This document shows positions 14,884-31,131 of a stretch of DNA of 64,000 nt, in pieces (the first letter of the stretch is position 1; each line of letters starts with the position of its first letter). The translations under genes and the position numbers were made by a program. The notes beneath the pieces were generated by a model, which saw nothing but the letters and a program-made list of their open reading frames with translations, was not told where the DNA came from and did not search any database. Where the stretch lies: positions 17,334 to 81,333 of the forward strand of contig JAGXTF010000059.1 of NCBI GenBank assembly GCA_018333525.1. Reading direction: 5' to 3'. The stretch comes from Bacteroidota bacterium (lineage in GTDB: Bacteria; Bacteroidota; Bacteroidia; NS11-12g; UBA955).

Positions 14884-14898
14884 AACGAAGTATTCAAA

Positions 14899-15679: not shown

Positions 15680-18499
15680 TTGCCTATGTTTCAAAAGTAC
15701 CTTAGTTTATTTTTATTATTTTTCTCTTTTTCACAGGCAAAATCTTCTCATGTTGCCGGCGGAAATATCAGTTATAAATATCTGGGAAATAACCAATATC
15801 AGATATACTGGACCATCATTCGTGATTGCCGGGGAATTGGATTAGACAGCCCGGAATTAGGTGTATATGGAGGAACCAACGGAGGCAACAGCTGTTTTCA
15901 AACCAAATTAAATGGAAACAGAATCTCTATTACAGACATTTCCCCACGCTGCAGCACATCCAATGCTCCTTGCAAGCCACAAAATACACCTTCCGGGGAA
16001 GGATTCGAATCCCATGTGTATACCTATACCATAGATATTTCCAAATCACCATTTGCAGAGAATATTGCCAAATCTACCTGCTGTGAAATTACATTTTATA
16101 CCAAAATAAGTTCAAGGCCTGGTGTAATTACTACCGGGCCGGCTGGTAATTATTATGTAAATGTTCTTACCATTAATTTTTGTAATTTAAAAAAATGTAA
16201 AAACAAGGTATCAAATCCTCCCGAATTTCCAGTTAACGGAATTCAGATGTTATGTTGCAACCAGGCAAGCAGTTTTAATTTTGGCGCTGAAGATCCGGAT
16301 GGGGATAAAATAAAGTATAAACTCACTTCTGCCCTTTCCGGAATTCCCAATTCCACGGTAAATTATTCCTCTCCATTTTCGTATTTATATCCTTTAACAT
16401 GTTATTGTGTTCCACCCACAACAATCAAATGCAATCCAAACACAACAACAAATCCACCACGTGGAATTTATTTAGATTCCAACAGCGGTCAATTTGTTTT
16501 TACACCTACCAAATGTGATGAGGCTGCAGTAGTTGCTGTGGAAGGAATTGAATACAGAAAAGATACTTCAGGTAAATATTTACCCATTGCCAGAAGCATT
16601 CAGGATTATTTATTTCTGGTAAAAGATGATTGCGATTACAATAAAACTCCAACTGAAGAACTTTATTCCAGCAATTTTGCGGTTAAAGAAGGCGATACAT
16701 TGAAAATTCAATTGCATGTAATGGATGAAACATTTACGCCTTATCAAACCATTCCAGACACACCTTTAATTTTGGCATACGATACTTTTGCCCATTTTTA
16801 TCTGATTCTCACCAACCCTCAAGACAGAGAGAAAATATACGATCTGATATGGCCAACCAAAGTTGGTGATGCAAGGTTCTTTAATTATTATTTCCGCAAT
16901 AAATTCTCCGATTTTCATTGTCCAAAGCAAGTGTATGGATTTGCTGCAATTCCCATTCGCATTCAAAAGGAAGGTGTAAATATTGATTTTAATACATCAA
17001 AAGATACTTGTGGGAATACCGTTTTCAACGCGGTATCGAACCCGTTGGATGATGCGAATTACTTATGGACCTTGTATGATTCTACGGGAAAAGATACTAT
17101 TGCGCAATATGGTGGAAACAGTATTATTCCTTCAATTGGACTCCAGGGAAAATATCAATTAAAATTACAATCATTGAACGGTTTTTACTTTTTTAGAGAT
17201 ACTACAAAAACAATTTATCTCGATGGAAAATATTATCATGCAGATATTGGCGGACCTGAAATTCTTTGCTCCAATTCAAGTCTGGATATTTCAGCAACTT
17301 TATTCGAAACCCATCCACCGCTGCAATATTTATGGACTGTTAAAGCTGGAGGTTCAACAATTTTAACCAGTTCTGATCCCATTCTGAAATTAAATAATAT
17401 ACAGTCCAATCAGAATGTGACACTGGCAATCAAAGACAATAATGGTTGTTTTTATCAAACCAAGCCTAAAACAATTTCCATATTAAATGATATTAATCTG
17501 GATCTAGGAACGGATAAAAATGTGTGTTATGAAAATAATATTTTCATTGGTCCTGACCCTTTGAATTCGTTCAAATACAAATGGAATACCGGAGATACAA
17601 CTTCGCAAATTCAGGTGAACAAATCAGGAAAATATTTATTATCCGTAAATGCCCCTGGTTATTGTGATGCAATGGATTCCGTTGAACTAATGTTCGTTCC
17701 CAAACCAAATATTACTACCACAGATAGTTTGTATTGCAAAAAAGGGAATCCTTTGCAGATTGACCTGAACCACCATTTATTGGAGAACGGAAATGATATT
17801 ACAAATGGATCTGCGAGTTATGACAATGCTTATACAGACAAGTATAATTTAAATATTTACAACGGGCATTTTTTAAATATCAATCTAGGCTATTTTGGTT
17901 ACTGGAAAATCCCTTATCATTTTCATGTATCCGGTTGTCCGGATTTATCCGATACCATTCAACTGCGCACTTCCAGCAATCCTACTGCCCTGTTTAATAC
18001 AGATCCATCTGATTTGTTTGTATATGATCAATTGGATATTTTATTCCAAAACCGAACAACGAATGCAGATAAAACTCCATTATATTTCGATTGGTATATG
18101 GATAGATTTCCCGGGGATGTGTTACATTTTGTAGTGGACTCTTTAATACATTTTCCATCTGTGAGCGCAGGTTATCGCCCCAAGTTGGTAGTTACAACAG
18201 GCATGGGATGTGTAGATTCTATTCAAAAATTACTGAATATTATTCTGGATGTAAATTCGGTGCAGAATAACAGGCTGATCATCAATTCGGATTTGCAAAT
18301 TTTGAGTACTGAAATTGTAAATTACCAATTGATTTTGTTCGATGCCATAGGCCGGCGAATATTTGAGACCCACTCCAATTCCGGAATCAGGGAAAAGAAA
18401 AATGAATTGCCTGAAGGGGTTTATTATTATCAAATTGAATATAACACGCATCTGGCAGCACACCAGATGTTAAAAGGAAAGATTACAATAACCCGTTAA
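15680..18499 (+). CDS. large secreted cell-surface protein, paralog 1 of a tandem family; Cys-rich conserved N-terminal domain and T9SS C-terminal sorting domain
   Basis: Signal peptide. N-terminal motif SHVAGGNISYKYLGN..RDCRGI..GGTNGGNSC...CCEITFY...CNLKKC is shared with the next four genes. C-terminus LILFDAIGRRIF...LPEGVYYYQIE...KGKITITR resembles a T9SS CTD. Confidence 0.7.
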   Translation: MPMFQKYLSLFLLFFSFSQAKSSHVAGGNISYKYLGNNQYQIYWTIIRDCRGIGLDSPELGVYGGTNGGNSCFQTKLNGNRISITDISPRCSTSNAPCKPQNTPSGEGFESHVYTYTIDISKSPFAENIAKSTCCEITFYTKISSRPGVITTGPAGNYYVNVLTINFCNLKKCKNKVSNPPEFPVNGIQMLCCNQASSFNFGAEDPDGDKIKYKLTSALSGIPNSTVNYSSPFSYLYPLTCYCVPPTTIKCNPNTTTNPPRGIYLDSNSGQFVFTPTKCDEAAVVAVEGIEYRKDTSGKYLPIARSIQDYLFLVKDDCDYNKTPTEELYSSNFAVKEGDTLKIQLHVMDETFTPYQTIPDTPLILAYDTFAHFYLILTNPQDREKIYDLIWPTKVGDARFFNYYFRNKFSDFHCPKQVYGFAAIPIRIQKEGVNIDFNTSKDTCGNTVFNAVSNPLDDANYLWTLYDSTGKDTIAQYGGNSIIPSIGLQGKYQLKLQSLNGFYFFRDTTKTIYLDGKYYHADIGGPEILCSNSSLDISATLFETHPPLQYLWTVKAGGSTILTSSDPILKLNNIQSNQNVTLAIKDNNGCFYQTKPKTISILNDINLDLGTDKNVCYENNIFIGPDPLNSFKYKWNTGDTTSQIQVNKSGKYLLSVNAPGYCDAMDSVELMFVPKPNITTTDSLYCKKGNPLQIDLNHHLLENGNDITNGSASYDNAYTDKYNLNIYNGHFLNINLGYFGYWKIPYHFHVSGCPDLSDTIQLRTSSNPTALFNTDPSDLFVYDQLDILFQNRTTNADKTPLYFDWYMDRFPGDVLHFVVDSLIHFPSVSAGYRPKLVVTTGMGCVDSIQKLLNIILDVNSVQNNRLIINSDLQILSTEIVNYQLILFDAIGRRIFETHSNSGIREKKNELPEGVYYYQIEYNTHLAAHQMLKGKITITR

Positions 18500-18596
18500 T
18501 TTAAAGCTATAAAATACGCACCAATTCGAAATGAAAATATAGATACATTTTTTGAAACAAAAGTGTACATTTGACAGATAAAATAATTAAATATTT

Positions 18597-21500
18597 TTGA
18601 AAATTCCAGGAATTGTTCTTCTTTTTTTAATCGCTGGTCAAACCTCCGGGGTTTTTGCATCTCACATTTTCGGGGCGGATATTACGTACAAAAGTTTGGG
18701 TGGTTCAAAATATCGAATTTCTGCAAATTTATATAGGGATTGCAGACAACAGGGAATTTCCACTCCTCAAAGTGGGGTTTTCGCAGGAACCAACGGGGGC
18801 AATGGATGTGGCACATATAATATCAACTTTACAAGAACTTCAATTACCGAGGTTAGCACCATATGCAAAGGTGGAAAACCGATGTGCAGTTTTCCAAACG
18901 CAGTGGTAACAACCGGTTATGGAATTGAAAGGCAACTCTATGAAGCTGATGTAGATTTCAGCGCTACCCCATTGAGCAATTTTGCAAACAAAAGCTCTTG
19001 TTGCGAGGTAACCTTTTATATTGGAGATTGTTGCAGAATCGGCGCTATTACAACCGGTGCTTCGGGTGATTTATATGCCACATGCACAATACAAATATGT
19101 AATTTAAAAAAATGTACTGACACCATAACAAATGGTCCTGCAGCCAGTAGGGTCCCTCCGACTTATTTTTGTTGTAACCAAAGCGCATATTTTAATAATG
19201 GCTTTATGGATACATTTGAAAATGATAGTATATCATACAAGTTGACGCAAGCTTTAAATGGCTTACCACAATCCAGTGTTATTTATTCAACTCCATATTC
19301 CAATAAATATCCAATTACTCCATATTGCATTCCTTCCTCAACAATAAAGTGTGCACCCCAGCCTTATATACCTTTTCCGCGAGGTTTATTTTTTGATACA
19401 GCGAATGGTGATTTTATTTTCGTACCAACCAATTGCACTGAAGTTGGTGTAGTAAATTTTGAAGCAAATGAATGGCGCAAGGATACATCGGGTAAATATT
19501 TGTGGATAGGAAAAGTACACAGGGATATTGTCATCCGGATTTCCAATTCCTGTGGTAATAACAATACCGTCCGGCTCGACTCTACTTATGAATATGATTT
19601 TTGCGCGGGAGATTTGTTAAAAATTCGTTTGAACTTAGTTGATGAAGCATTTGCTCCGTACCAATCAGGCCCTGATTCGATATTCCTTTCGTGGAATAGG
19701 GGAATCCCCAAAGGTAAATTTGAAATTGAATATGATAAAGCTCAAGGTAAAAAACATGCTGTTTTTACTTGGCAAACGAAGTTACAGGACACTTCAGATT
19801 ATAAATATCATTTTGTATTCTCAACTACCGATAGCGTATGTGACCATCCCACAGTTACGCATAGAGCTGTGAATATTTACCTGAAAAAACCAGACAATCT
19901 TGAGATAAATACCACTTATATCAATTGCAACAAAACAAAGCTATCGGCAACATTATCCAAGTCTGTTAATGGCAATAGCATTTATACCTGGATAGTTGTG
20001 GATAGTTTCACCGGAAACATTGTTTTTAAAGGTACTGGAACAAGTACTACCACAGGTATTTTAAGTAAAGGCACATACAAGGCATCATTATTTTGCACGA
20101 ATAAAACTTATTGTTACCAGGAAATTTATACCTTCTTTCACATTGACTCCGTAGCTCCAACCTTATCTCTGCCAAATGATACCAATATTTGTTATGGGAA
20201 AAATGTAAGTATCCTAGGTAATACCGCGAATTTTTATAGTCCAGTACATTACCATTGGACTGTAAATTCCGCTACGAATTCAAAAGACACTCTCAAAATC
20301 CTTATTTTATCAAATATTATTTCAAATCAGGCTGTTTCACTTATGGTATCTGATGCGCGTGGATGTATACTCCGAGATGATTACAATGTCAATTTGTTCC
20401 CGGCTTCTCGTGCTAAATGGTCTAAAATCCCTTTGGATTCTATATGTAGAAATACTCCGGTTTTTTCACTTTCTGAATTCGTAGATTCCCCTGCAGATTC
20501 TCTGCGAAGAACAGGTAAATTCATCATTCAAAGCAGTTCCCTGACTTATGGCAAATTTGGTATTGTTGATAGTATCGGTGCGAATAAATTCGTCCTGAAT
20601 CCCGGAAAACTAACGAATGATTCTGACTTCAATTCCGCTAAAACACATACTGAAATATTAAGCCTATTGTGGAAGGATAGTTTTGGTTGTTCCAGTAAAT
20701 CCGACAATTTCATAAAAATTCTAAAAAGCCCTGAACTTAAAATAATAAATAAGGATATTTGTCAAAATCGGGGAGGAGAATTCAATCTGGATTCCTTAAT
20801 AATCAAACCAGATTGGTGGGGAGATAAATCCAAATACTGGTCTGTCCTGTCAGCACCTTCCGGCATCCCATTTAGTGATGTAATAAAAGAAAGAGATTTC
20901 AATGGAATTCACCAATATTGGTTTCAACTTGGTTCGAAAGGATTAAATAAATTTGCAGGAAAATATGCCCTTGGATTAACGGTTATAGATAAAGACAATG
21001 ATTGTGCAGTAACGGATAATGCCATAATCAACTTAAAACCACAACCAGAATTAACTACCAATAATATTTCAGGACAATGTGTGAATTTAAGTTATGCTAA
21101 TTTGCTCCAATTGTTTGATAGTAACGGGCAACCGGCCGACTCTGCCAGCAGCAGCTTTAACATTTATTCCTATAATGGAATTACAGATTCATCACTTTGG
21201 AAAAATATTCATTTAAAAAACGGATATTTATTTCCCTATTCCAGTAATTATGGTAATTACCAAATCCAAATCAAAAATTGGTCTACCAGCTGCATAAATA
21301 CAAGTTTGAATACCCTTCAGATTTATGCCACTCCCAAAGTAAATTTCACCACAAGCCCTGCTGACAGCGCTCCGGAAAATTTGCCCTATTTCACTGTTAG
21401 CAATAAAACGAGCATCGCTTCCTCAGACAATTTGAGTTATGTCTGGTATTACAGATATCCTAATCCGGTCTATAAAAGCACCGCGGATGCACCCACAATT

Positions 21501-21842: not shown

Positions 21843-21900
21843 TTGATGGCTTTATTCTCCGAATTATTTTGTATGTTTGACTGAACTTCAAATTATTGTT

Positions 21901-24900
21901 ATGCATATATTTAAATATTTAGGATGGATTGTATTGTTTTTTTGCTTTGACAAATCCCAGGCCTCCCATATGTTTGGTGCAGATGTTACCTACAAAAGTT
22001 TAGGCGGTACCAAATATAAAATTATCATGAATGTGTACAGGGATTGCCGGGGAATATCTTTTAGCGGCCCCAGTGCAGGAGTATTTGGGGGAACAAATGG
22101 AGGAAATGGCTGTGGAAACTATAATTTATTTCCATCTAGGATTGCGATATATGATGTATCTTCTGTTTGCCAAGGTGGTTCCAAGTTGTGCAATCCGCAG
22201 AATACATATGGGACAGGTGATGGTATAGAACTTCATGTTTATACTGTGGATGTAGATTTCAGCACTACACCTTTAAATAATTTTGTTAATAAAAGTTCCT
22301 GTTGTGAGGTGACATTTTACATTGGGCAGTGCTGCAGAACAGGAGCAGTTACCACAGGAAGTGCAGGCAATGATTTTTATGCTACCTGCACCATTAATAT
22401 TTGCAATTTATCCAAATGCTCCAGCACGGTTTCATCTGGTCCGGCACCCAGCCTGGCGCCTCCCAATTATTTTTGCTGTAACCAATCTTCGTATTATAAT
22501 AATGGTTTTATGGATAGTATTGATGGTGATTCTATTTCCTATAAATTAATTCCCGCTTTCGCTTCTCTGCCACAAAATTCTGTATCCTATTCCAGTCCTT
22601 TTTCATATCAATATCCGGTTACCTGCTATTGTGTTCCACCCACTACCATTAAATGTTCACCTAATCCATATGCAATGCCGCCAAGGGGAACATTTTTTGA
22701 TACCACAAATGGTGACTTTATTTACACTCCGACAAAATGCGATGAAGTAGCTACAATAAATTTTGAAGCCAAAGAATGGCGCAAGGATACAAGCGGAAAA
22801 TATATATGGATTGGAAAAGTGCGCAGAGATGTTTTGTTCCGGGTTTCCGATGCCTGCGGATATAATAAAACAGTTAGAGTTGACAGCATCTATGAATATC
22901 GCTTTTGTGCGGGTGAGGATGTAAAAATCAGGCTAAACTTAAAAGATCAGGCTTTTACCCCATATCAAACCAAACCGGATTCCATTTATATCACCTGGAA
23001 TAATGCAATACCCGGTGCAAATTTTAAAATAGAATACGATACTGCGGCAGGTGTAAAACATGCCATTTTTAGCTGGAAAACAAAACCAACAGATGCCAGA
23101 GATTATAAATACCATTTTGTATTCAGTACTACAGATAGTGTATGTACCAATCCCACTATCACACACAGGTCGGTGAATATTTATTTAAAATCAAAAGATA
23201 CTCCGGATTTTTCCAGCTCAATTGTAAACTGTAATACATTAAAACTTACGGCAGTTATTGGTAAAAAAGTAACAGGAACTACTACCTATAACTGGGTCGT
23301 AGAAGATAGTTCCGATGGTTCGGTTTTATTTACCGGAAGCGGAAATAATATTACAACCGGGATTTTAAAAACCGCCACATTACGCATCCGTTTAAATTGC
23401 AACAATCCCTATTTCTGTATGCCTGAAATTGTAAAATACCAACATTTTATAAATGCATCACCTTCAGTTCAATTGCCTGCAGATACTGCAGTTTGTTTTA
23501 ATGGGGATGCATATTCTTATGCTAAAATTTCAGGATTGCAAAGTAATGTTACATTCAAGTGGTGGCTCAATTCTGCGCTCCTTCCGGACACATTACAGAC
23601 TATTACCCTGAAACAAAATCAAAGCGACAAAATGCTGGAAGTGCAGGTGACAGACCAACGTGGATGTAGTTCCCGGGACACACAAATTATTAAACAACTT
23701 CCTGACCCACACGTAATATGGACTAAATCCCTGTATCAGGTATGTCACGACAGTTTAAATGTATTGTTGAATAAACTGGTGAATATTGGAGATTCTACTA
23801 CAACCAATATTTATTGTCAGGACTCCAAATACATGAGTTATTCCGGAGGTAATTATTATTTTTCACCCAATAAAAGCGACAATATTTTTCTGCAAAGTGC
23901 ATCCGTAGAATTTAAAATTTATGCTGCATTTACTTCCAAATGGCACCAATGTTTTAGCCGGGATAGCAGCGTCATCCGAATAAATGGAAATCCCATTGTA
24001 GAAATTTCTGATGGATCATTTTGCCAGGATATAGGAACTTATGTGTTGGATTCATTTATTATAAAACCTAAAATTACATTTGGAATCACACGCACTTGGA
24101 AAGCTATTTCTGCTCCAACAGGAGTGAATAAAGCCGGTTTGATATATTCCAGCGGAGGAAAATTGCTTTTTGGTTTTGGTTCCAAAACACAAACCACTTA
24201 TGGTGGAAACTACCAGTTTGAATATTTGGTAAAAAACAATACTACAGGATGTATGGGGCGCGATACCAATAAAGTTACGATAACCAACGAAGCGTTATTT
24301 CAGAAAACCAGAAGTGTGCTATGTGAAGATGCCGGTGCATATAGTTTGAATAATAGCGGATTACTGGATAACAATAATATTGATGTACCACCTTCCAGCA
24401 GTTATCAGATTGTAGCATTCAACAACAGTAAAACAGATCCGAAAGTAACCGGAACAACTTTAACCGGGGGATATATTTTTCCGACTTCATCAGCCGGTTT
24501 GGGATACTGGACATTCAAAATAAATGCAGCGCCATATGGCTGCCCTATGAGTGACACTTTTTCTTTCTCCGTTTCACCCGCTCCGGTAGCATCGTTTACT
24601 TCCAATCCCAAAGATTCCACACCAATTTCCAAACCTGATTTTGTACTGAGCAATACCAGTACCATCAGTGCAGGTTATTTGAGTTATTTCTGGAATTTCG
24701 GTACTGGAAATACTGCGGACACGTCCATACAGGCAAGCCCAACCATTAACTATCCGGCTAAAAATGCGGAATATTTTGTGACGTTGGTTGCAACCTCGGA
24801 TAAAAAATGCAGAGATACATCTGTAATGCGTTTGCAGGTCGGCTCTTTTATCAATGGGATGTCGAATACCGACCTTCCAAAAATCTGGATGAACAATCAG

Positions 24901-25092
24901 TTTCAGGTGCAAGGAATTTCATTCAGAAAACTGGAAACCGGAATTTTTGATGCGAGCGGGAAACAGGTTGCAACATTAGTAAACAACGGAACTATTACAT
25001 TGCCGGCCGGAATTTATTATTACCGTGTTTTCGTGGAATTTGAAAATGGGAACACGGCCATGTACAAGGGAATAATTCACCATCAGGAATAA
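21901..25092 (+). CDS. large secreted cell-surface protein, paralog 3 (T9SS cargo)
   Basis: ATG at 21901 (MHIFKYLGWIVLFFCF...). Same N-terminal Cys-rich domain, with long blocks nearly identical to paralog 2 (EWRKDTSGKY.WIGKV.RD...YKYHFVFSTTDSVC). T9SS CTD at the C-terminus. Confidence 0.7.
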   Translation: MHIFKYLGWIVLFFCFDKSQASHMFGADVTYKSLGGTKYKIIMNVYRDCRGISFSGPSAGVFGGTNGGNGCGNYNLFPSRIAIYDVSSVCQGGSKLCNPQNTYGTGDGIELHVYTVDVDFSTTPLNNFVNKSSCCEVTFYIGQCCRTGAVTTGSAGNDFYATCTINICNLSKCSSTVSSGPAPSLAPPNYFCCNQSSYYNNGFMDSIDGDSISYKLIPAFASLPQNSVSYSSPFSYQYPVTCYCVPPTTIKCSPNPYAMPPRGTFFDTTNGDFIYTPTKCDEVATINFEAKEWRKDTSGKYIWIGKVRRDVLFRVSDACGYNKTVRVDSIYEYRFCAGEDVKIRLNLKDQAFTPYQTKPDSIYITWNNAIPGANFKIEYDTAAGVKHAIFSWKTKPTDARDYKYHFVFSTTDSVCTNPTITHRSVNIYLKSKDTPDFSSSIVNCNTLKLTAVIGKKVTGTTTYNWVVEDSSDGSVLFTGSGNNITTGILKTATLRIRLNCNNPYFCMPEIVKYQHFINASPSVQLPADTAVCFNGDAYSYAKISGLQSNVTFKWWLNSALLPDTLQTITLKQNQSDKMLEVQVTDQRGCSSRDTQIIKQLPDPHVIWTKSLYQVCHDSLNVLLNKLVNIGDSTTTNIYCQDSKYMSYSGGNYYFSPNKSDNIFLQSASVEFKIYAAFTSKWHQCFSRDSSVIRINGNPIVEISDGSFCQDIGTYVLDSFIIKPKITFGITRTWKAISAPTGVNKAGLIYSSGGKLLFGFGSKTQTTYGGNYQFEYLVKNNTTGCMGRDTNKVTITNEALFQKTRSVLCEDAGAYSLNNSGLLDNNNIDVPPSSSYQIVAFNNSKTDPKVTGTTLTGGYIFPTSSAGLGYWTFKINAAPYGCPMSDTFSFSVSPAPVASFTSNPKDSTPISKPDFVLSNTSTISAGYLSYFWNFGTGNTADTSIQASPTINYPAKNAEYFVTLVATSDKKCRDTSVMRLQVGSFINGMSNTDLPKIWMNNQFQVQGISFRKLETGIFDASGKQVATLVNNGTITLPAGIYYYRVFVEFENGNTAMYKGIIHHQE

Positions 25093-25293
25093 AACCTTAA
25101 GTGAAATTGGATAAACTATTGCGAAATAGAACCTCAAACAAAGAGTCTTAATTGGAACATTTAAATTTCCGGCCGATAAATTCATTAGGGTTTTTTATGG
25201 ATTCGATTTATCTTTGAGTATGTCATTTCCGGAGCTTACAACTTCAGGCAACACTTTATATTTGAACTACGTCCTTCATTCTAACTCCTCTCT

Positions 25294-28200
25294 ATGCGAT
25301 TAAAACTACCATTCCTGTTTTTTTTATTTTTCGTTCTCTTTAACTCAGCTTCACTAAAAGGCAGCAATGCATCCGGCGGATATTGGGAATACAGTTATCT
25401 AGGCAACAACAAATACTTGTTGAATTTTGGTGTTTTACGCGATTGCAGGGGAATTCCACTTTCCGGAATTTCGTTTGGTTTTTATGCAGGAACGAATTAT
25501 GGAAATGGATGCAAGCAAGACACAATACAGGGTTTTGTTCTCACTTCCATGAAAACGGTTACCAGGTACTGCAGCAGTATATCTGACCCATGTTATCCGC
25601 ATAATTCAAATAGTACAGGAAGTGGAATTGAATTGCTAATCTATTCCAGAGTTGTAGATCTAAACAGCTCCAAATTCTCATCTTACGTGGGGAGTAGTGC
25701 TTGCGGAGATATAACTTTTTATGCCAATAAGTGTTGCCGAAGTGGTGCAATTACCACCGGGCATGATGGTGAGGATTTTTATGTGGTTACCACCTTGCAC
25801 ACTGAAAATTTATCCAAATGCATCAATCAAAATAATAATTCAGGAAAATGGTTAAATCATTTTCCTGCAATCATTTGTTGTGCCACTCCCGTATTTCACA
25901 ATTTTGGGTTTACCGACAGCACAGACCGTGATTCTATTTCTTATAGCATGGCGCCGGCTCAAAGAGGGATACCGATAAATAGTGTGAGTTATACCAGTCC
26001 ATTTAAATATCAAACACCAATTACGGTTTATTGTCCGGGAAGCGGCGGATTGGGTTGTACTCCAAACATCACTGCAGATCCACCCAGAGGAATGTATCTC
26101 AATGATAAAACCGGGGATATAGTTTTTACTCCGGTCAATTGTACAGACGTCGCAACAATTGCAGTTCAGGCAACTGAATGGCGCAAAGACAAAAATAACA
26201 AATGGGTGAAGATCGCTTCCATTTTATATGAAACGATGGTGATTATTAAAGACAATTGCGACTATAATAAAATTCCAAAAATTACCGGAACTACGAGTTC
26301 AAAAATTTGCGCGGGTGATAAAATATGTTTAACCATTGATGTTACAGATGATAAATTTACACCATACCAATCTGTAGCAGATACTGTTCATACTTCCTGG
26401 ATTTTACCTATACCCAATGCTACTATTACCGTACAATCCGATACATTTCCCAATAAAGAAAAACTGGAATTTTGCTGGCAAACCACCTCGGCTGACACAC
26501 AGGATTTTGCTTATCAATTTGAAATCATAGCGCATGATGGAAGTTGTAATGTTTCCAGAGAAAGCAGCCGTGCATTTACCATTCAGGTACAAAAAAAGGA
26601 TGAAGCAAAAATATCCGTATCCCCTGTTCAGCCGTGTAACAACATAACCTTGCAGGCCTCTACTTTGCGCTACAAAGAATCCACACCAACATTTGAATGG
26701 ATAGTAACAGATTCTTTAACAGGTAAAAAAATATTCGGTGGAAATAAATCCACGGAATTTATTTCTTATTTACAAAAAGGGGGGTATAAAATTACACTGC
26801 GCACTACAAGCGTAAAATTCTGTTATCCCGATGTAGTACAATATATTTCAATCAGGGATTCTTTGCCCACAGTGACTTTGCAAAGAGGAATACAGGTTTG
26901 TACCCAACAGAAATTTAATATCCTTGCAGTAACAAGCAATGCGAAAAATCCGATCACATATACATGGACTTTCCCCGGAGGAATTGACTCCACCGGCTTC
27001 AAAGACAATTACAATTTAATTTATTCCGATACTTCCACTATAAGAATTCAGGCAACAGACAGTAATGGATGTATCATGAAAGATACTGCTGCGGTAATTG
27101 TTTGGGAATTGCCAAAAATAGCATGGATTTCGGATCCATTAAATACCAGATGCCATGATTATGGAGATTTCAATCTGGATCCATTGCTTATAGAACCGTT
27201 CTCAGGATTGCGTACCAATTCAAATTTCCGAATTTATGGTTCCCTAACCAAATTTGGAGCCTATGGTTTGGTGGATTCCATAAAACCCGATGAACACTAT
27301 TTCCGCACTACTAAAATCAACAATGCCCTTGAATTAAGCTCAGGTAAAAGTGTTACGGAAACAATAACAGCCTGGTTCAGAGATACCAATGGTTGTGAGA
27401 ATTCAGCAACAACAAAACAAAAAATAAATGGGAATCCAATTATTGAACTGACAGATAAAACTTTTTGTCAGAATATGCTTGGAGAAATTACTGCAGATTC
27501 ATTTGTCATTAAACCTAAAATCAAATTTGGCGCCCAATACACATGGACTGCTGTTACTTGTCCATCAGGGGTAAATTTAAAGGATGTGTTCACCAATCCA
27601 TCTTTGAATGAATATTACTTTCAGGGTGGTTCTAAAGGGGTAAATACTTTTGCCGGAGAGTATATTCTGCGTTTAAAAATCGTAGATTTATTAACCGGTT
27701 GTACAGATAGTGAATCCAATAAAGTAACGCTGCTCTCAGAGCCGGTAATGGATACTTTTTCGCATAAAGGAGTGTGTGTAAATGGCAGCGCAGTAGATTT
27801 AACCAAATTATTTAAATCCAATGGAAATCCTGTTACAGTTGGAGAAAGTAATTTCAGAATTACTGCATTTAACGGTGACACCAATAGCACCTTTTACAAA
27901 AATATTGTTTTGAAAAATGGTTATATTTTCCCTACCAATGTACCCTGGGGAAAATATACGGTTTTGTGCACCAACCGCAGCACAGGTTGCGATGCTTCAA
28001 CACTGAATTATATTCTTATCCGACCGCTGCCACAAGCAGAATTCACGACCAATCCGAAAGATACGGCTCCAAAAAATCTCCCTTATTTTGTAACAAAAAA
28101 CACCACAAAAATTGCTTCAGGTGAAAACATGACTTTTGAATGGTATACCAAATTCCCTTCGCTTTCTGATAAATCCACAGCATTTGAACCTGTAATCACC

Positions 28201-28539
28201 TATCCTCTTACGGATTCCGGTTATCTGGTGAGAATGATTGCACTAACCGCCAGCGGTTGCAGGGATACCTTTGATAAAGTACTTATTGTAGGTACTGGAA
28301 AATACATTTTCGTCCGTTCCATTGAAGGAAAAGAATTTAAAATAGATTCCAGAATAAGCGTATTATCTCCCGAGTATCGCGTTTTACAAACCGATGTATA
28401 TGATGAAAGTGGCAGATTGGTTCATTCATTTTTGAAAAATGAGGGTGTCGATTTGAAAAGTGGTATTTACTTCTATGTCATTTACTTCCAGTCTCCTGAT
28501 GGTCAGATTATGGTTTACAAATCCAAAATTTCCTTATAA
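25294..28539 (+). CDS. large secreted cell-surface protein, paralog 4 (divergent N-terminus, T9SS cargo)
   Basis: Signal peptide. Retains RDCRGIPLSG, CC..GAITTG and TEWRKDKNNKW. Its C-terminal half aligns with paralogs 2 and 3 (KINGNPIIELTD..FCQ, GNYQ/KYTV... and the NPKD...KNTTKIASG block). T9SS CTD. Confidence 0.7.
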   Translation: MRLKLPFLFFLFFVLFNSASLKGSNASGGYWEYSYLGNNKYLLNFGVLRDCRGIPLSGISFGFYAGTNYGNGCKQDTIQGFVLTSMKTVTRYCSSISDPCYPHNSNSTGSGIELLIYSRVVDLNSSKFSSYVGSSACGDITFYANKCCRSGAITTGHDGEDFYVVTTLHTENLSKCINQNNNSGKWLNHFPAIICCATPVFHNFGFTDSTDRDSISYSMAPAQRGIPINSVSYTSPFKYQTPITVYCPGSGGLGCTPNITADPPRGMYLNDKTGDIVFTPVNCTDVATIAVQATEWRKDKNNKWVKIASILYETMVIIKDNCDYNKIPKITGTTSSKICAGDKICLTIDVTDDKFTPYQSVADTVHTSWILPIPNATITVQSDTFPNKEKLEFCWQTTSADTQDFAYQFEIIAHDGSCNVSRESSRAFTIQVQKKDEAKISVSPVQPCNNITLQASTLRYKESTPTFEWIVTDSLTGKKIFGGNKSTEFISYLQKGGYKITLRTTSVKFCYPDVVQYISIRDSLPTVTLQRGIQVCTQQKFNILAVTSNAKNPITYTWTFPGGIDSTGFKDNYNLIYSDTSTIRIQATDSNGCIMKDTAAVIVWELPKIAWISDPLNTRCHDYGDFNLDPLLIEPFSGLRTNSNFRIYGSLTKFGAYGLVDSIKPDEHYFRTTKINNALELSSGKSVTETITAWFRDTNGCENSATTKQKINGNPIIELTDKTFCQNMLGEITADSFVIKPKIKFGAQYTWTAVTCPSGVNLKDVFTNPSLNEYYFQGGSKGVNTFAGEYILRLKIVDLLTGCTDSESNKVTLLSEPVMDTFSHKGVCVNGSAVDLTKLFKSNGNPVTVGESNFRITAFNGDTNSTFYKNIVLKNGYIFPTNVPWGKYTVLCTNRSTGCDASTLNYILIRPLPQAEFTTNPKDTAPKNLPYFVTKNTTKIASGENMTFEWYTKFPSLSDKSTAFEPVITYPLTDSGYLVRMIALTASGCRDTFDKVLIVGTGKYIFVRSIEGKEFKIDSRISVLSPEYRVLQTDVYDESGRLVHSFLKNEGVDLKSGIYFYVIYFQSPDGQIMVYKSKISL

Positions 28540-28552
28540 CCTTCCATTATTT

Positions 28553-30091
28553 ATGAAACATTTTAATTCCGGATTTATTCCAAAATTTATTTTGCTTTGC
28601 GTTTTTGCAGTATTCATTAAGGCAAACGGAAGCCATATGATGGGGGCAGATATGCAATATAAATGCCTTGGAAATGGCATGTATAAAATTACAGCAAAAC
28701 TCTATCGAGACTGCCGGGGAATTCCATTAAACGGCCCTACTTTTGGTGTGTTCGCTGGAAACAACGGCGGCAACTCCTGTGGCAATTATTCGCTCATTTT
28801 TAACCGAATTTCCATCAGAGACGTTACGCCAATCTGCGACTCACTTTCTGCCCCCTGTAATCCGCAGAACACCACCAGCAAAGAAGGTGTGGAAGAACAT
28901 ATTTATGAAGCCATCGTTAATTTTAAAACAACTCCACTTAGCAATTTCTGGAATAATTCTTCTTGTTGCAATGTTACCTTTTATGTAGGACAATGCTGCA
29001 GGAATGGAGCAATTACCACCGGACCTGCAGGCAATGATTTCTATACTACCTGTTTAATTAATTTGTGCAGTCTGGATTCCACCCAATGCAATTCGAGTCC
29101 TTCTTTAACCAATATTCCCATCATTTTTCATTGCTGCAACACTCCTTACCGCTATAATATTGGTGCATTGGATTCTGCAGAAAATGATTCCCTTTCATAC
29201 AAACTGGTGGGAGGAATTGGAAGTTTACCCAATGCTTCTGTAACCTATACCAATCCATTTAGCTTTGACCATCCGCTTTCCGTTTATTGTCCGGGTGGAG
29301 GAATTACCTGTACACCCAATCCGAATGCGACGATACCTGAAGGCTTTTTTCTGGATTCTGCAAATGGAGATATGGTATTTACCCCTGTAAAATGCGATGA
29401 AGTTGGAATTATTGTTGTTGAAATCACGGAGTGGCGAAATGTAAGCGGAACCTGGAAAATGCTCGGAAAAAACCGCCGAGATATTCAGGTTTTATTTAAA
29501 GATTGTGGAAATAATATGCCGCCACAAATAAGCGGTCAAAAAACACATAGGATGTGTGAAGGCGATTCTATTTGTTTTGATATTTTAGCCATTGACAGAA
29601 ATGATACCTCTTCTACCTCAGGAGATACTGTAACCCTGGATTGGAACAATGGAATTCCGGGTGCAAGTTTCACTATTAAGAACCCACAATCTAAGGATAA
29701 GGAAGCCAGATTTTGCTGGGTTGCACCAATTGGTTCATCCCGTGCCAATGCCTATACATTTACAGCCCATACCGTGGATAGAAATTGTCCGATTAAAAGT
29801 GAGTCTTATGTTGGCTTTAAAATTTATGTAGACCAATGTAATACCGGTACCAATAAATTATCGGGCAAGACAGCAATTCGGATTTATCCAATGCCTGTTA
29901 GTTCCGGTAATTTCATCCAACTGCAACCTGAATATTCAGGGAAATACGAAATTCTATCGATTTCAGGCCAGATTATTTATCACGGCAGGGCGGAAATAAC
30001 CAAAGGAATTTGGGTTCCATCGGAAGTAAAGTCCGGAATTTATTCCATTCAAATGGAATCAGGTCCCAGGTTCAAAATAGTTGTAGATTAG
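28553..30091 (+). CDS. short paralog 5 (512 aa) of the same family: N-terminal Cys-rich domain fused almost directly to a type-A-like T9SS CTD
   Basis: ATG at 28553 (MKHFNSG...). SHMMGADMQYKCLGNG..RDCRGIPLNG..GNNGGNSCG..CCNVTFYVGQCCR. C-terminus IYPMPVSSGNFIQL...KSGIYSIQM is type-A-like. The ORF-track start at 28460 overlaps the previous gene and is rejected. Confidence 0.65.
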   Translation: MKHFNSGFIPKFILLCVFAVFIKANGSHMMGADMQYKCLGNGMYKITAKLYRDCRGIPLNGPTFGVFAGNNGGNSCGNYSLIFNRISIRDVTPICDSLSAPCNPQNTTSKEGVEEHIYEAIVNFKTTPLSNFWNNSSCCNVTFYVGQCCRNGAITTGPAGNDFYTTCLINLCSLDSTQCNSSPSLTNIPIIFHCCNTPYRYNIGALDSAENDSLSYKLVGGIGSLPNASVTYTNPFSFDHPLSVYCPGGGITCTPNPNATIPEGFFLDSANGDMVFTPVKCDEVGIIVVEITEWRNVSGTWKMLGKNRRDIQVLFKDCGNNMPPQISGQKTHRMCEGDSICFDILAIDRNDTSSTSGDTVTLDWNNGIPGASFTIKNPQSKDKEARFCWVAPIGSSRANAYTFTAHTVDRNCPIKSESYVGFKIYVDQCNTGTNKLSGKTAIRIYPMPVSSGNFIQLQPEYSGKYEILSISGQIIYHGRAEITKGIWVPSEVKSGIYSIQMESGPRFKIVVD

Positions 30092-30213: not shown

Positions 30214-31131
30214 TTGAGTATTGAAGTTACAAATCTCACCAAAAAATATGGCGATCAAGTCGCTGTAAACCATATTTCATTTCAAGCCGGGAAAGGCGAA
30301 ATTGTTGGTTTTTTGGGCCCCAACGGTGCAGGTAAAAGCACCACCATGAAAATACTTACCTGCTTTATTCCGCCAACGGAAGGAACCGCAAAAGTTTGTG
30401 GTTTTGATATAGGCGAAAAGAGCATAGAGGTGCGAAAACATGTGGGATATCTTCCGGAACATAACCCACTATATCTGGAAATGTATGTGAAGGAATACCT
30501 GCGTTTTGCTGCAGAATTGGGAAAAACAAAGAATCCGGCACAACGTGTAAAAGAAGTGATTGCATTGACAAGGCTTGAAAGTGAACAACACAAGAAAATC
30601 AGGCAATTGAGTAAAGGTTATCGCCAAAGGGTTGGCCTTGCACAAGCCATTATTCATGATCCAGAAGTATTGATTTTGGATGAACCAACCAGCGGACTGG
30701 ATCCGAATCAGGTAATTGAAATCCGCGACCTGATTAAAAACCTGGGAAAAGAAAAGACCATTATGATTTCCACCCATATTATGCAGGAAGTGGAAGCCAT
30801 TTGCGATCGCGTAATTATTATTGACAAAGGAAATATCGTAGCTGATGATACCCTTGAAAATTTGAGAAACAGCGCGGCCGGCAAGGTGATTATACGGATA
30901 CAGTTTGCAGAAAAAATGGATGCTGAAAAAATAAAATCCATTCCCAATTGTGACAAGGCAACCGAAACCGAAAATAATACCTGGTTATTGGAGTCTGCCG
31001 ATTCGGCTTTCAGACAGCAGGTTTCACAATTCGCGCTCAAAAACAATTACGAAGTTTTGGAATTGGTTTCAGAGAAAAATACACTGGAAGAAATTTTTAG
31101 AAAATTAACAGGAAATGTGGGTCATCTATAA
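30214..31131 (+). CDS. gldA: gliding motility-associated ABC transporter ATP-binding subunit GldA
   Basis: Walker A GPNGAGKST, signature LSKGYRQRVGLA, Walker B LILDEP. N-terminus MSIEVTNLTKKYGDQ matches GldA-type. Followed by gldF and gldG. TTG start. Confidence 0.8.
   Translation: MSIEVTNLTKKYGDQVAVNHISFQAGKGEIVGFLGPNGAGKSTTMKILTCFIPPTEGTAKVCGFDIGEKSIEVRKHVGYLPEHNPLYLEMYVKEYLRFAAELGKTKNPAQRVKEVIALTRLESEQHKKIRQLSKGYRQRVGLAQAIIHDPEVLILDEPTSGLDPNQVIEIRDLIKNLGKEKTIMISTHIMQEVEAICDRVIIIDKGNIVADDTLENLRNSAAGKVIIRIQFAEKMDAEKIKSIPNCDKATETENNTWLLESADSAFRQQVSQFALKNNYEVLELVSEKNTLEEIFRKLTGNVGHL

What the first reader, a model, noticed from the sequence alone, without database searches (positions are those of the whole stretch)
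15680..30091. Five tandem, same-strand paralogs of a large cysteine-rich T9SS cargo protein next to gldAFG/sprA, candidate undescribed adhesin system
Five consecutive genes of 939, 1081, 1063, 1081 and 512 aa have signal peptides. They share an N-terminal domain with an invariant Cys framework (S-H-x-x-G-A-D-I-T-Y-K-x-L-G...R-D-C-R-G-I...G-T-N-G-G-N-G-C-G...C-C-E-V-T-F-Y-x-G-x-C-C-R-x-G-A-I-T-T-G...C-N-L-K-K-C), and every one ends in a T9SS C-terminal sorting domain. Paralogs 2 and 3 share long, nearly identical blocks, so the duplication is recent. Paralog 4 has a diverged N-terminus and paralog 5 is a minimal version of N-domain plus CTD. The array sits directly upstream of gldA-gldF-gldG and ruvA-sprA-porZ-like, i.e. 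inside the gliding/T9SS core. I do not recognise the Cys-rich N-domain as a named family. It is not SprB-repeat, cadherin, PKD or FN3 by motif. The arrangement suggests a diversifying family of surface or motility adhesins, SprB/RemA-like in role but not in sequence, or secreted binding proteins.
Basis: partly seen in the sequence, partly recalled or inferred. Interest (0 to 1): 0.8.

Follow-up and report, generated by a model that had tools for sequence, protein, structure and literature searches.

The report
Five tandem secreted Ig-like surface proteins
Five neighbouring genes in an uncultured freshwater Bacteroidota genome encode diverged copies of a secreted, cysteine-rich protein built from immunoglobulin-like domains; they belong to a very large but unnamed family of type IX secretion substrates, so the find is real but fairly ordinary.

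Summary
The five same-strand genes (939, 1081, 1063, 1081 and 512 aa) are real paralogs. They share a ~410-aa N-terminal module that matches no Pfam or NCBIfam family, even when the family consensus is used as query. The module is not a new fold: AlphaFold (pLDDT 91) gives three Ig/cadherin-like beta-sandwiches followed by a C-terminal sorting domain (CTD). It is not rare either: an exhaustive profile search finds 2,239 cluster representatives at E<=1e-30. A distant 'THIVGGE' branch exists in cultured genera and is annotated only as 'gliding motility-associated C-terminal domain-containing protein'.

Paralogs 2 and 3 are 42% identical (62% in the module, 68.5% DNA), so the duplication is not recent. 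All five CTDs score below the curated cut-offs. P5 is clearly type A on a family-specific model, while P1-P4 carry a degenerate, type-B-like CTD. Adjacency to gldAFG-ruvA-sprA-porZ is confirmed here and in one sister MAG, but in none of 78 other loci, and no accessory gene is conserved, so this is not a 'system'.

Best reading: fast-diverging, disulfide-stabilised T9SS cargo that acts as surface or secreted binding proteins. Function is inferred, not shown.

The parts
15680..18499 (+). Paralog P1 (939 aa): signal peptide, N-module, variable beta-rich middle, type-B-like CTD
   Evidence: ORF. N-module HMM 585 bits. CHU_C 23.4-24.5 bits against cut-off 27 and TIGR04183 22.2 against 23. Family type-B HMM 29.2 bits, type-A HMM 20.7 bits. 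Lacks the C148/C149 Cys pair.
18597..21842 (+). Paralog P2 (1081 aa)
   Evidence: ORF. Same length as the public gene call. N-module HMM 618 bits. 42% identical to P3 overall and 62% in the N-module. C-terminus scores only 11.2 bits on the type-B HMM.
21901..25092 (+). Paralog P3 (1063 aa from ATG 21901; the ORF opens at TTG 21877)
   Evidence: ORF. Public gene call is 1063 aa. N-module HMM 664 bits. TIGR04183 16.3 bits and CHU_C 13.4-14.5 bits, both sub-threshold.
25294..28539 (+). Paralog P4 (1081 aa), the most diverged N-module (S-N instead of S-H at the mature N-terminus)
   Evidence: ORF. N-module HMM 591 bits. 33-37% identity to the other N-modules. PKD 18.9-20.4 bits against 23.5. C-terminus weak on both the type-A (10.7) and type-B (7.7) HMMs.
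28553..30091 (+). Paralog P5 (512 aa): minimal form, N-module plus type A CTD; begins 13 nt after the P4 stop codon
   Evidence: ORF. An exact 512-aa product is on record on ENA contig k141_296349. AlphaFold pLDDT 91.1. Ortholog M3/P0012 in MAG-354 is 49-52% identical.
28631..29077 (+). P5 domain D1 (aa ~27-175): Cys-rich Ig-like beta-sandwich carrying the SH..GAD, YRDCRG, G.G.EEH and CCRNGAITTG motifs
29105..29506 (+). P5 domain D2 (aa ~185-318): cadherin/He_PIG-like sandwich with the NSSP, CCN and D.x.D-S-(I/L)-S-Y motifs
29510..29836 (+). P5 domain D3 (aa ~320-428): third Ig-like sandwich
   Evidence: AlphaFold model. D348, D358 and D409 are 99% conserved and C412 92%.
29879..30085 (+). P5 C-terminal sorting domain, type A (begins I-Y-P-M-P-V)
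   Evidence: AlphaFold strand-rich domain at aa 443-511, pLDDT about 90. TIGR04183 22.1 bits against 23 and PF18962 16.8-17 bits against 27. Family type-A HMM 36.9-40.4 bits, E 4e-13; the PorZ control scores 21.8-25.5.
18227..18496 (+). P1 C-terminal 90 aa: degenerate CTD, closer to type B (ends ...GVYYYQI...LKGKITITR)
   Evidence: Alignment A4. hhalign of P1-P4 C-termini against type B CTDs gives 96.9%, E 1.7e-10, over 71 columns to the last residue; against type A it gives 95.3%, E 2.1e-8.
21570..21839 (+). P2 C-terminal 90 aa: degenerate CTD-like domain
   Evidence: Aligns with the C-termini of P1, P3 and P4. Group hhalign. On its own only 11.2 bits on the type-B HMM.
24820..25089 (+). P3 C-terminal 90 aa: degenerate CTD-like domain
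   Evidence: TIGR04183 16.3 bits.
28267..28536 (+). P4 C-terminal 90 aa: degenerate CTD-like domain
24580..24834 (+). PKD-like domain of P3, immediately before its CTD
   Evidence: PKD_4 26.6 bits for the whole protein and 27.6 bits for the C-terminal fragment, against cut-off 27. Long relatives P0066 and P0114 have the same PKD-then-CHU_C order.
18566..18573 (+). Candidate Bacteroidota -7 promoter box TAnnTTTG, 24 nt before the P2 start
   Evidence: Background is 0.81 per kb on the + strand. Promoter function is an inference from the published Bacteroidota promoter consensus (own knowledge).
21872..21879 (+). Candidate -7 box TAnnTTTG, 22 nt before the P3 ATG
25257..25264 (+). Candidate -7 box TAnnTTTG, 30 nt before the P4 ATG
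34485..43856 (+). Context, not part of the family: sprA (34485-41618) and porZ (41619-43856), the T9SS translocon and attachment-complex component that such cargo would use
   Evidence: TIGR04189 2206 bits and NF052228 505 bits.
30214..33612 (+). Context, not part of the family: gldA, gldF, gldG
   Evidence: TIGR03522 427.9 bits, TIGR03518 293.1 bits and TIGR03521 453.6 bits, all above their cut-offs.

Best explanation
The five genes encode old, fast-diverging paralogs of a Sec-exported, T9SS-secreted protein. Each has a conserved head of three disulfide-stabilised Ig/cadherin-like beta-sandwich domains (D1-D3, about 410 aa). P1-P4 add a variable beta-rich stalk of about 500 aa with a PKD-like domain. 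All five end in a C-terminal sorting domain.

Inferred mechanism. The signal peptide takes the protein to the periplasm, where it folds and forms disulfides. The CTD is then recognised by the SprA translocon encoded 4 kb downstream. [quoted passage not shown] P1-P4, with a degenerate type-B-like CTD, would if secreted depend on a PorP/SprF-like shuttle encoded elsewhere. Because the CTD is the cell-proximal end, the conserved N-module is displayed at the distal tip. It most likely acts as a ligand-binding or adhesive head, with the paralogs offering related but different specificities and stalk lengths.

The position next to gldAFG-sprA-porZ is synteny inherited in one lineage, not a functional unit.

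Shown here: paralogy, the fold, family size, CTD homology at profile level, and absence of conserved partner genes. Inferred: secretion, disulfides, surface display and binding.
For: - Paralogy and the shared module.
- High-confidence all-beta four-domain model of P5, pLDDT 91.1, and of D1 alone, pLDDT 87.
- No catalytic family hit in Pfam or NCBIfam.
- CTD evidence: 30 of 58 close homologs carry PF18962. P5 scores 40.4 bits on a type-A HMM built from those homologs, more than the bona fide PorZ CTD in the same window at 25.5. The P1-P4 C-termini match type B CTDs at 96.9% and type A at 95.3%. Long relatives with the same N-module pass TIGR04131 (37-44 bits against 35) or TIGR04183 (32.8 against 23).
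- T9SS machinery (sprA, porZ) is present.
- Fast divergence: P5 is 49-52% identical to its ortholog and the other paralogs only 31-39% to any MAG-354 copy, while flanking proteins are 61-79% identical.
- The rules linking CTD type to shuttle and destination come from PMC12618676 and PMC9143113.
Against: - Every public CTD model scores all five proteins below its curated cut-off.
- P2, P3 and P4 on their own score only 7-11 bits on family CTD HMMs. They lack the NRWG and W-x-G signatures of type B CTDs and the PNP signature of type A, so their secretion is uncertain.
- No PorP/SprF-like gene was found among the window ORFs scanned.
- Ig-like folds are generic and do not prove adhesion.
- No ligand, expression or localisation data exist.
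- Disulfide pairing could not be read because model coordinates are not exposed.
Confidence: 0.6

Rival explanations
1. SprB-like motility adhesins. The proteins would be loaded on the gliding track and propelled along the cell. The array would sit next to gldAFG/sprA because it is part of the motility apparatus.
For: The array is adjacent to gldA-gldF-gldG-ruvA-sprA-porZ in the window and in MAG-354. [quoted passage not shown] Long relatives carry bona fide type B CTDs and are labelled 'gliding motility-associated-like protein'.
Against: The gld/sprA neighbourhood is absent from 78 other loci holding a family member. There is no SprB-repeat hit and no PorP/SprF gene in the window ORFs scanned. 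P5 and most close homologs have type A CTDs. Not all type B cargo goes to the track. The database label reflects only the CTD model.
Confidence: 0.12
2. Released, soluble binding proteins. After CTD removal the proteins would be shed into the water to bind a substrate, such as a polysaccharide, a metal or another cell, rather than staying on the surface.
For: Type A CTDs support either anchoring or release, as with AmyB and RemA in PMC12618676. P5 and hundreds of ~500-aa homologs are just the N-module plus a type A CTD with no stalk. D1 has conserved polar residues that could form a ligand or metal site: H28, R52, D53, E114, H116 and R150.
Against: PorZ, part of the attachment complex, is encoded in the window, so anchoring machinery exists. 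The stalk-bearing forms P1-P4 and the 1,500-aa relatives look like surface-projecting proteins. There are no data on release.
Confidence: 0.15
3. A variable surface coat or decoy. The family would be an abundant, rapidly diversifying surface layer under phage or grazer selection. The paralogs would provide antigenic or receptor variation rather than binding any specific ligand.
For: Paralogs and orthologs diverge much faster than flanking genes. Genomes carry several copies, for example JAEUUL01, JADYZD01 and CANKVN01 on three or more contigs each. The stalk varies in length from 475 to about 1,750 aa. P2, P3 and P4 each seem to have their own -7 box, which would allow independent expression.
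Against: The distal N-module is the conserved part and the variation is mostly in the stalk, the reverse of what is expected for an immune-evasion tip. There are no invertible promoters, no long identical tracts and no repeat cassettes that would indicate programmed variation.
Confidence: 0.08
4. P2-P4 are decaying copies. With degenerate CTDs they would no longer be secreted and would be on the way to pseudogenisation, leaving only P5 (and perhaps P1) functional.
For: P2, P3 and P4 score only 7-11 bits on CTD HMMs and have no public-model hit or only a weak one. They have no one-to-one ortholog in the sister MAG.
Against: All four are intact ORFs of 939-1081 aa. The Cys framework and family-invariant residues are largely kept. 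Their C-termini are conserved among themselves, with G42, G64 and Y66 invariant and a shared GIY-Y-Y-x-I...YKGK motif. P2-P4 have candidate promoters.
Confidence: 0.05

Closest known systems
Uncharacterised ~580-aa 'gliding motility-associated C-terminal domain-containing proteins' with an N-terminal T-H-I-V-G-G-E motif (Crocinitomicaceae/Fluviicola, Adhaeribacter, Hymenobacter, Pontibacter, Taibaiella; e.g. P0322, P0293, P0374)
   Same: Homologous N-module in the same domain order. All 75 proteins are recognised by the HMM of the window family, many across D1-D3. They share the motifs [ST]-H-x-x-G-[GA]-[DE], YRDC, CCRN, NSSP and D-x-D-G-D-S-L-x-Y. They have a signal peptide and a T9SS CTD, and no Pfam or NCBIfam model covers the module.
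   Different: Only about 25-30% identical to the window family. They have far fewer cysteines, almost always a canonical type B (CHU_C) CTD, and occur in cultured genera. None has a tested function.
SprB of Flavobacterium johnsoniae (gliding-track adhesin, type B CTD, partner SprF)
   Same: A large T9SS-secreted cell-surface protein built of repeated beta-sandwich domains. The P1-P4 C-termini resemble type B CTDs at profile level.
   Different: There are no SprB repeats and no adjacent sprF/porP gene. The window proteins are much smaller. The CTD lacks the NRWG and W-x-G motifs that are present in every type B CTD of my alignment. Movement on the track is untested.
RemA / AmyB-type type A CTD cargo (F. 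johnsoniae) and A-LPS-anchored type A cargo of Porphyromonas gingivalis
   Same: P5 and most close homologs end in a type A CTD. The PorV shuttle and PorU/PorZ attachment route is expected, and porZ is encoded in the window (PMC12618676 and PMC9143113).
   Different: There is no lectin, amylase or protease domain. The passenger is the unnamed three-sandwich module. CTD scores fall below the curated cut-offs.
Ig-like binding regions of Gram-positive serine-rich-repeat and related adhesins (SraP 4m03, GspB 5iuc, Hsa 6efc, S. sanguinis SK1 6vs7, R28 8cxj)
   Different: Sequence identity is 12-18% and only one domain is aligned. The match is to a generic Ig fold, the anchoring is unrelated (sortase/LPXTG), and no sialic-acid-binding motif was tested.
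Cadherin-like / He_PIG (PF05345) bacterial Ig domains
   Same: D2 has a D-x-D-x-D-S-(I/L)-S-Y acidic motif. He_PIG matches are faint, E 0.03-0.04. Protocadherin and cadherin-23 match by fold.
   Different: Scores are below the gathering threshold (14.8-15.1 bits against 24). Ca2+ binding is untested.

Membership tests
T9SS type A CTD (TIGR04183 / PF18962 Por_Secre_tail) | Score at or above the curated cut-off of the public model | tested here: not met
   P5 scores TIGR04183 22.1 against 23 and PF18962 16.8-17 against 27. P1 scores TIGR04183 22.2 against 23. P3 scores 16.3. P2 and P4 have no hit at E<0.1. The bona fide PorZ CTD in the same window also falls short, 19.9 against 23, so the cut-off under-calls CTDs in this lineage.
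T9SS type A CTD (TIGR04183 / PF18962 Por_Secre_tail) | Homology to CTDs of relatives that do pass PF18962, located at the extreme C-terminus | tested here: met
   This applies to P5 only. It scores 36.9-40.4 bits (E 6e-12 to 4e-13) at aa 455-535 of the 544-aa ORF, on HMMs built from homolog CTDs. On the same HMM P1 scores 20.7, P4 10.7, and P2 and P3 are not significant.
T9SS type A CTD (TIGR04183 / PF18962 Por_Secre_tail) | Compact beta-sandwich fold of about 70-80 aa | tested here: met
   In the P5 AlphaFold model, aa 443-511 form strands E443-445, 453-458, 463-468, 474-481, 485-488, 495-501 and 506-511, with block pLDDT 88-96.
T9SS type B CTD (TIGR04131 / PF13585 CHU_C) | Score at or above the curated cut-off of the public model | tested here: not met
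   P1 scores CHU_C 23.4-24.5 against 27 and P3 13.4-14.5. TIGR04131 hits none of the five. Relatives P0066, P0114 and P0060 with the same N-module do pass, 37-44 bits against 35.
T9SS type B CTD (TIGR04131 / PF13585 CHU_C) | The five conserved motifs A-E reported as each necessary for SprB CTD secretion (PMC12618676). The motif sequences are not given in the text, so they were taken from my alignment of type B CTDs as NAFTPNGDG-ND-F, IFNRWG, W-x-G, GVYYY and G-x-(V/I)-T-L-(I/L)-R. | tested here: inconclusive
   P1-P4 keep the GVYYY-type motif and a terminal K-G-K-I-x-I/L motif. They have F-D/N-x-x-G in place of FNRWG, and lack NAFTPNGDG and W-x-G. Profile-profile match to type B is 96.9%, E 1.7e-10.
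T9SS type B CTD (TIGR04131 / PF13585 CHU_C) | Cognate PorP/SprF-like shuttle gene nearby (frequent but not obligatory) | tested here: not met
   No PorP/SprF family hit among the window ORFs scanned. None recurs next to family members in 82 loci. Orphan type B substrates are known to exist.
T9SS substrate in general | N-terminal Sec signal peptide, and T9SS machinery in the same genome | tested here: met
   Hydrophobic N-termini, modelled as a helix at aa 8-24 in P5. No dedicated signal-peptide predictor was available. sprA and porZ are on the same contig.
SprB-type gliding adhesin | SprB repeats (PF13573) and movement on the gliding track | tested here: not met
   There is no PF13573 hit at E<=0.1-1 in any of the five proteins. 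Movement is not testable with these tools.
He_PIG / cadherin-like Ig domain (PF05345) | Pfam score at or above the gathering threshold over D2 | tested here: not met
PKD domain (PF18911 / PF00801) | Pfam score at or above the gathering threshold | tested here: inconclusive
   P3 scores 26.6 bits as a whole protein and 27.6 bits as the C-terminal fragment, against 27. P4 scores 18.9-20.4 against 23.5 and P2 13.9.
Unnamed three-sandwich N-module family (this work) | Full-length match to the ~410-aa module in relatives from other genomes | tested here: met
   The P3 module finds 57 proteins with E down to 1.9e-131 at 96-100% coverage. The profile finds 2,239 representatives at E<=1e-30, and the top 150 all begin within the first 29 profile positions, nearly all extending past position 430. 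There are 261 tblastn-confirmed matches (the best 80 kept as loci) in the GTDB species-representative genomes.

The most novel reading that the evidence does not exclude
The conserved D1-D3 module could be a dedicated, still-unnamed ligand-binding head used by thousands of Bacteroidota T9SS substrates. It appears with either type A or type B sorting domains, that is, either destination. D1 would contain a specific binding or metal site formed by the near-invariant polar residues: the His at the second position of the mature protein, R52-D53, E114, H116 and R150. The five paralogs would then be a panel of related specificities, for example for algal or cyanobacterial surface glycans, in planktonic freshwater Bacteroidota. 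Naming and solving this module would annotate a very large block of 'hypothetical / gliding motility-associated' proteins.
Probability: 0.25. Interest if true: 0.55.

Novelty: new member of a known kind. Interest (0 to 1): 0.3.

Why it matters
T9SS substrates make up much of the cell surface and secretome of Bacteroidota, and most are annotated only through their sorting domain. This work adds four things.

- It delimits a ~410-aa three-domain N-terminal module that no Pfam or NCBIfam model covers, although it heads at least about 2,200 clusters at 50% identity. That makes it a sensible target for a new domain model and for one structural or binding study.
- The same head is combined with type A or type B CTDs. 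Published CTD-swap experiments show that the CTD decides the cargo's destination, so the head can be sent to either.
- In this lineage the curated CTD cut-offs miss real CTDs, including that of PorZ.
- Adjacency to gld/spr genes is not evidence of a motility role.

For freshwater microbial ecology, a fast-evolving multi-copy surface protein family in abundant uncultured Bacteroidota is a reasonable candidate for particle or algal attachment. None of this overturns current understanding.

Tried and rejected
- The word-indexed search returned only 57 proteins and made the family look rare. The exhaustive profile search (9,937, 6,593 and 2,239 representatives at E<=1e-3, 1e-10 and 1e-30) showed that this was a sensitivity artefact. 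The profile has 495 positions and includes some CTD columns, so part of the weakest hits may be CTD-only. The E<=1e-30 set cannot be.
- PDB sequence searches with the module profile and with the P2 C-terminal half found nothing useful.
- Foldseek against afdb50 was unavailable.
- The sigma-70 promoter scan was uninformative: 53 sites against 61.7 expected. Apart from the hairpin after the redoxin gene at 14895-14933, no terminator-like site lies between the five genes or before gldA.
- Direct-repeat search found only diverged in-register paralog similarity and no recombination tracts or cassettes.
- I looked for a conserved accessory gene by clustering all flanking ORFs of 82 loci. Only housekeeping synteny blocks came out: M24 aminopeptidase, PCMT, sugar transferase and HlyD/ABC.
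- A redox link between the upstream TlpA/ResA-like thiol-disulfide oxidoreductase and the Cys-rich cargo was considered. The gene is syntenic only in the window and MAG-354 and scores below the family cut-offs, so the idea stays a speculation.
- An LPMO-like N-terminal histidine brace was considered because of the conserved S-H at the mature N-terminus. The His is at position 2, not 1, and P4 has Asn there. No coordinates were available to test proximity to E114 and H116.
- The disulfide map could not be derived because model coordinates are not exposed.

Full report
**What is in the sequence.** The region 15680-30091 holds five consecutive + strand ORFs.
- With the most plausible starts they encode 939, 1081, 1063, 1081 and 512 aa.
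- The last four lengths match the gene calls on the public source contig, ENA metagenome assembly ERZ27300258, contig k141_296349, 407,786 bp.
- All five begin with a hydrophobic leader that ends just before a conserved S-H, which is S-N in P4.
- In the AlphaFold model of P5 the leader is a helix at aa 8-24, and the first strand starts at aa 29.
- Pairwise blastp E-values run from 1e-77 to 0, so paralogy is beyond doubt.
- The five-way alignment shows about 410 shared aa with 70 invariant columns, many of them Cys.
- Downstream, gldA, gldF, gldG, ruvA, sprA (2206 bits) and porZ (505 bits) all pass their NCBIfam equivalog cut-offs.
- Upstream lie a TlpA/ResA-like thiol-disulfide oxidoreductase and a ferritin.

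The core observation is therefore right.

**Where the observation overstates.**
- P2 and P3 are not nearly identical. They are 42% identical over their full length and 62% in the N-module. DNA identity is 68.5% over 938 nt, and the longest in-register DNA matches are 25-150 nt at 60-92%. The duplications are old.
- The Cys framework is largely shared but not invariant. P1 lacks the C148/C149 pair, and P4 lacks C139 and C172. Across 144 family representatives only eight Cys are conserved at 88% or more.
- No public CTD model reaches its curated cut-off on any of the five. P1 scores TIGR04183 22.2 against 23 and CHU_C 23.4-24.5 against 27. P5 scores TIGR04183 22.1 against 23. P3 scores 16.3. P2 and P4 have nothing at E<0.1.

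**What the N-terminal module is.**
- No Pfam-A or NCBIfam model hits it in any of the five proteins, in 58 relatives, or in HMM consensus sequences of the family and of its distant branch.
- The only trace is a faint He_PIG match on the second domain, at E 0.03-0.04.
- AlphaFold2 with a 58-sequence alignment gives a confident model of P5, pLDDT 91.1 and pTM 0.78. It is all-beta with four domains: D1 about aa 27-175, D2 about 185-318, D3 about 320-428, and the CTD at 443-511.
- Foldseek against the PDB returns strings of Ig/cadherin domains such as RAGE, protocadherins, ICAM-5 and CD22, at E about 1e-7 and with low TM-scores because of domain orientation.

The 'Cys-rich N-domain' is thus not a new fold. 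It is three Ig/cadherin-like sandwiches with Cys-rich elaborations and no recognisable catalytic domain.

**How big the family is and who has it.**
- The word-indexed search suggested rarity: 57 proteins, the best 52% identical, all from MAGs and unnamed.
- The exhaustive profile search corrected this. It found 9,937 cluster representatives at E<=1e-3, 6,593 at <=1e-10 and 2,239 at <=1e-30.
- Its best 150 all begin within the first 29 profile positions, nearly all extending past position 430, in proteins of 281-1,746 aa.
- In one genome per GTDB species, 261 stretches encode a confirmed relative. The best 80 are all from uncultured Bacteroidota MAGs, mostly freshwater (Tanganyika, Baikal, Zurich, Rimov, Mendota and rivers), and often several per genome.
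- Source names are only 'hypothetical protein', 'PKD domain-containing protein', 'T9SS type A sorting domain-containing protein' or 'gliding motility-associated-like protein'.
- A distant branch begins T-H-I-V-G-G-E and keeps the YRDC, CCRN, NSSP and D-x-D-G-D-S-L-x-Y motifs. It comprises hundreds of ~580-aa CHU_C proteins in Crocinitomicaceae/Fluviicola, Adhaeribacter, Hymenobacter, Pontibacter and Taibaiella.
- All 75 proteins are recognised by the HMM of the window family, many across D1-D3.

The module is therefore widespread, uncharacterised and unnamed, but not unseen.

**The C-terminal domains.**
- I built HMMs from the C-termini of relatives that pass the public models.
- P5 is clearly type A. 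It scores 36.9-40.4 bits, E down to 4e-13, and begins I-Y-P-M-P-V. That is more than the bona fide PorZ CTD of the same window, which scores 21.8-25.5.
- P1-P4 share a C-terminal domain with one another. As a group it matches type B CTDs slightly better (hhalign 96.9%, E 1.7e-10, 71 columns to the last residue) than type A (95.3%, E 2.1e-8). The type A against type B control gives only 42.5%.
- Singly, P1 scores 29.2 bits on type B and 20.7 on type A. P2, P3 and P4 score only 7-11 bits.
- P1-P4 keep the GVYYY-type strand and a terminal K-G-K-I-x-(I/L) motif. They lack the NAFTPNGDG, NRWG and W-x-G signatures present in all type B CTDs I aligned.
- Paillat et al. report five type B motifs, each necessary for secretion of the SprB CTD (PMC12618676), so secretion of P2-P4 is uncertain.
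- Long relatives with the same head pass TIGR04131 (P0066, P0114 and P0060, 37-44 bits against 35) or TIGR04183 (P0153, 32.8 against 23). The head is therefore combined with either sorting signal.
- P3 also has a PKD domain just before its CTD (27.6 bits against 27). The long relatives have the same PKD-then-CHU_C order.

**Genomic context.**
- MAG-354 (GCA_016787485.1) has the same layout: hisS, a 430-aa unknown, redoxin, ferritin, three paralogs of 1064, 1244 and 509 aa, then gldA, gldF, gldG, ruvA and sprA.
- tblastn of the window's gld, spr, ruvA, redoxin and ferritin proteins against all 86 fetched loci found them only in that MAG and in the window's own contig.
- Other members are singletons among unrelated genes.
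- Copies per locus are one in 79 loci, two in 4, three in MAG-354 and five in the window.
- Clustering all flanking ORFs showed that 43 of 82 loci share a different conserved neighbourhood: M24 aminopeptidase, PCMT, sugar transferase and HlyD/ABC. That is another orthologous locus inherited by descent, and no accessory gene travels with the family.
- The position beside the T9SS and gliding genes is therefore lineage-specific synteny, and 'system' is not justified.
- Within the array, Bacteroidota-type -7 boxes (TAnnTTTG) lie 22-30 nt upstream of the P2, P3 and P4 starts, against a background of 0.81 per kb. P5 starts 13 nt after P4.
- This suggests separate promoters for P2, P3 and P4-P5, which is an inference. 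No terminator-like hairpin lies in any of the gaps between the five genes or before gldA.

**Evolution.**
- Between the window and MAG-354 the flanking proteins are 61-79% identical.
- P5 and its ortholog M3 are only 49-52% identical.
- P1-P4 have no one-to-one partner, with a best match of 31-39%.
- The family thus evolves faster than its neighbours and turns over by duplication and loss.
- Variation is greatest in the stalk. The N-module keeps family-wide invariant residues: E114, D212 and G264 at 100%; C102 at 100%; D348, D358 and D409 at 99%; R52 at 98%.

**Most likely mechanism.**
- Shown: a Sec-type leader, three Ig-like domains, a CTD-like C-terminus, and T9SS genes on the same contig.
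- Inferred: export to the periplasm, folding with disulfide formation, and CTD recognition by SprA.
- For P5 (type A), hand-over to PorV followed by release or anchoring via the PorU/PorZ attachment complex.
- For P1-P4 (type-B-like), dependence on a PorP/SprF-like shuttle encoded elsewhere, if they are secreted at all.
- These rules come from PMC9143113 and PMC12618676, which also show that the CTD alone dictates the final location and that not all type B cargo goes to the gliding track.
- Because the CTD end is cell-proximal, the conserved head is distal, which fits a binding or adhesive tip on stalks of different length.
- I put this at about 0.6 overall. The 'T9SS cargo made of Ig-like domains' part is more secure than the 'adhesin' part.
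- The rivals are a gliding-track adhesin (0.12), a released soluble binder (0.15), a variable coat or decoy (0.08) and decaying copies P2-P4 (0.05).

**Comparison with known families, and verdict.**
- By sequence the closest relatives are uncharacterised CHU_C proteins.
- By fold they are generic Ig/cadherin adhesin domains.
- By logic they are type A and type B T9SS cargo such as RemA and SprB.
- Membership of the SprB family fails: no SprB repeats and no SprF.
- Membership of the curated CTD families fails on score, but is supported by profile comparison and by the fold.
- The finding is a real, well-delimited array from a large, unnamed family of a known kind of protein. It deserves a domain model and one biochemical study, but it would not surprise a T9SS specialist. 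Interest 0.3.

Noticed in passing
window 14347-15542 and 14895-14933: A TlpA/ResA-like thiol-disulfide oxidoreductase (69.7 bits, below the family cut-offs) and a ferritin lie immediately upstream of the Cys-rich array. They are syntenic in MAG-354 at 66% and 75% identity. A 17-bp-stem bidirectional terminator-like hairpin follows the oxidoreductase gene. A role in oxidative folding of the cargo is only a speculation.
   Followed up: partly
window 41619-43856: PorZ passes its equivalog model (505 bits), but its own CTD scores 19.9 on TIGR04183 against the cut-off of 23. The curated type A threshold therefore under-calls genuine CTDs in this lineage.
   Followed up: yes
L007-L086: In 45 of 80 loci the family gene runs into the end of the MAG contig. 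Assemblies tend to break inside these genes, presumably because of multi-copy repetitive stalk regions, so copy numbers per genome are underestimated.
   Followed up: partly
L007 3861-9238 and 42 other loci: Half of the fetched loci share an upstream block of M24 Xaa-Pro aminopeptidase, PCMT methyltransferase, two unknown ORFs, a Bac_transf sugar transferase and HlyD/ABC genes. This marks a second, widely conserved orthologous position of the family.
   Followed up: partly
P0066, P0114, P0060 versus P0153, P0002 etc.: The same N-module is fused to canonical type B CTDs in ~1,500-aa proteins and to type A CTDs in 500-1,750-aa proteins. Sorting domains have therefore been exchanged within one passenger family.
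   Followed up: partly
window 15740-15760, 18660-18680, 21958-21980, 28622-28640 (mature N-termini): The predicted mature proteins start with a conserved [AGS]-[ST]-H, placing His at position 2, directly before the first strand. The motif continues as T-H-I-V-G-G-E in the distant branch. P4 has S-N instead. D1 also has near-invariant E114 and H116. Whether these residues form a site could not be checked without model coordinates.
   Followed up: no
window 12989-14254 (- strand): A 421-aa ORF has no Pfam or NCBIfam match, but is conserved in position in MAG-354 (430 aa, 30% identity).
   Followed up: no
window 30214-31131: The public gene call for gldA is 272 aa. The 305-aa ORF from TTG 30214 matches TIGR03522 end to end (aa 1-299 on profile positions 1-301), so the public start is probably too far downstream.
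   Followed up: partly
window 53307-60350: A 1125-aa protein with WG_beta_rep repeats is followed by a 1204-aa hybrid two-component sensor (Reg_prop, Y_Y_Y, HisKA, HATPase, receiver). It is typical of Bacteroidota polysaccharide-sensing regulators and unrelated to the finding.
   Followed up: no
record titles of L009, L027, L031, L036, L042, L045, L051: Several MAGs carrying this Bacteroidota-specific T9SS cargo are labelled Sphingomonadales, Bifidobacterium, Rhizobium, Chitinophaga pinensis or Chryseobacterium gleum. These labels are probably wrong.
   Followed up: no
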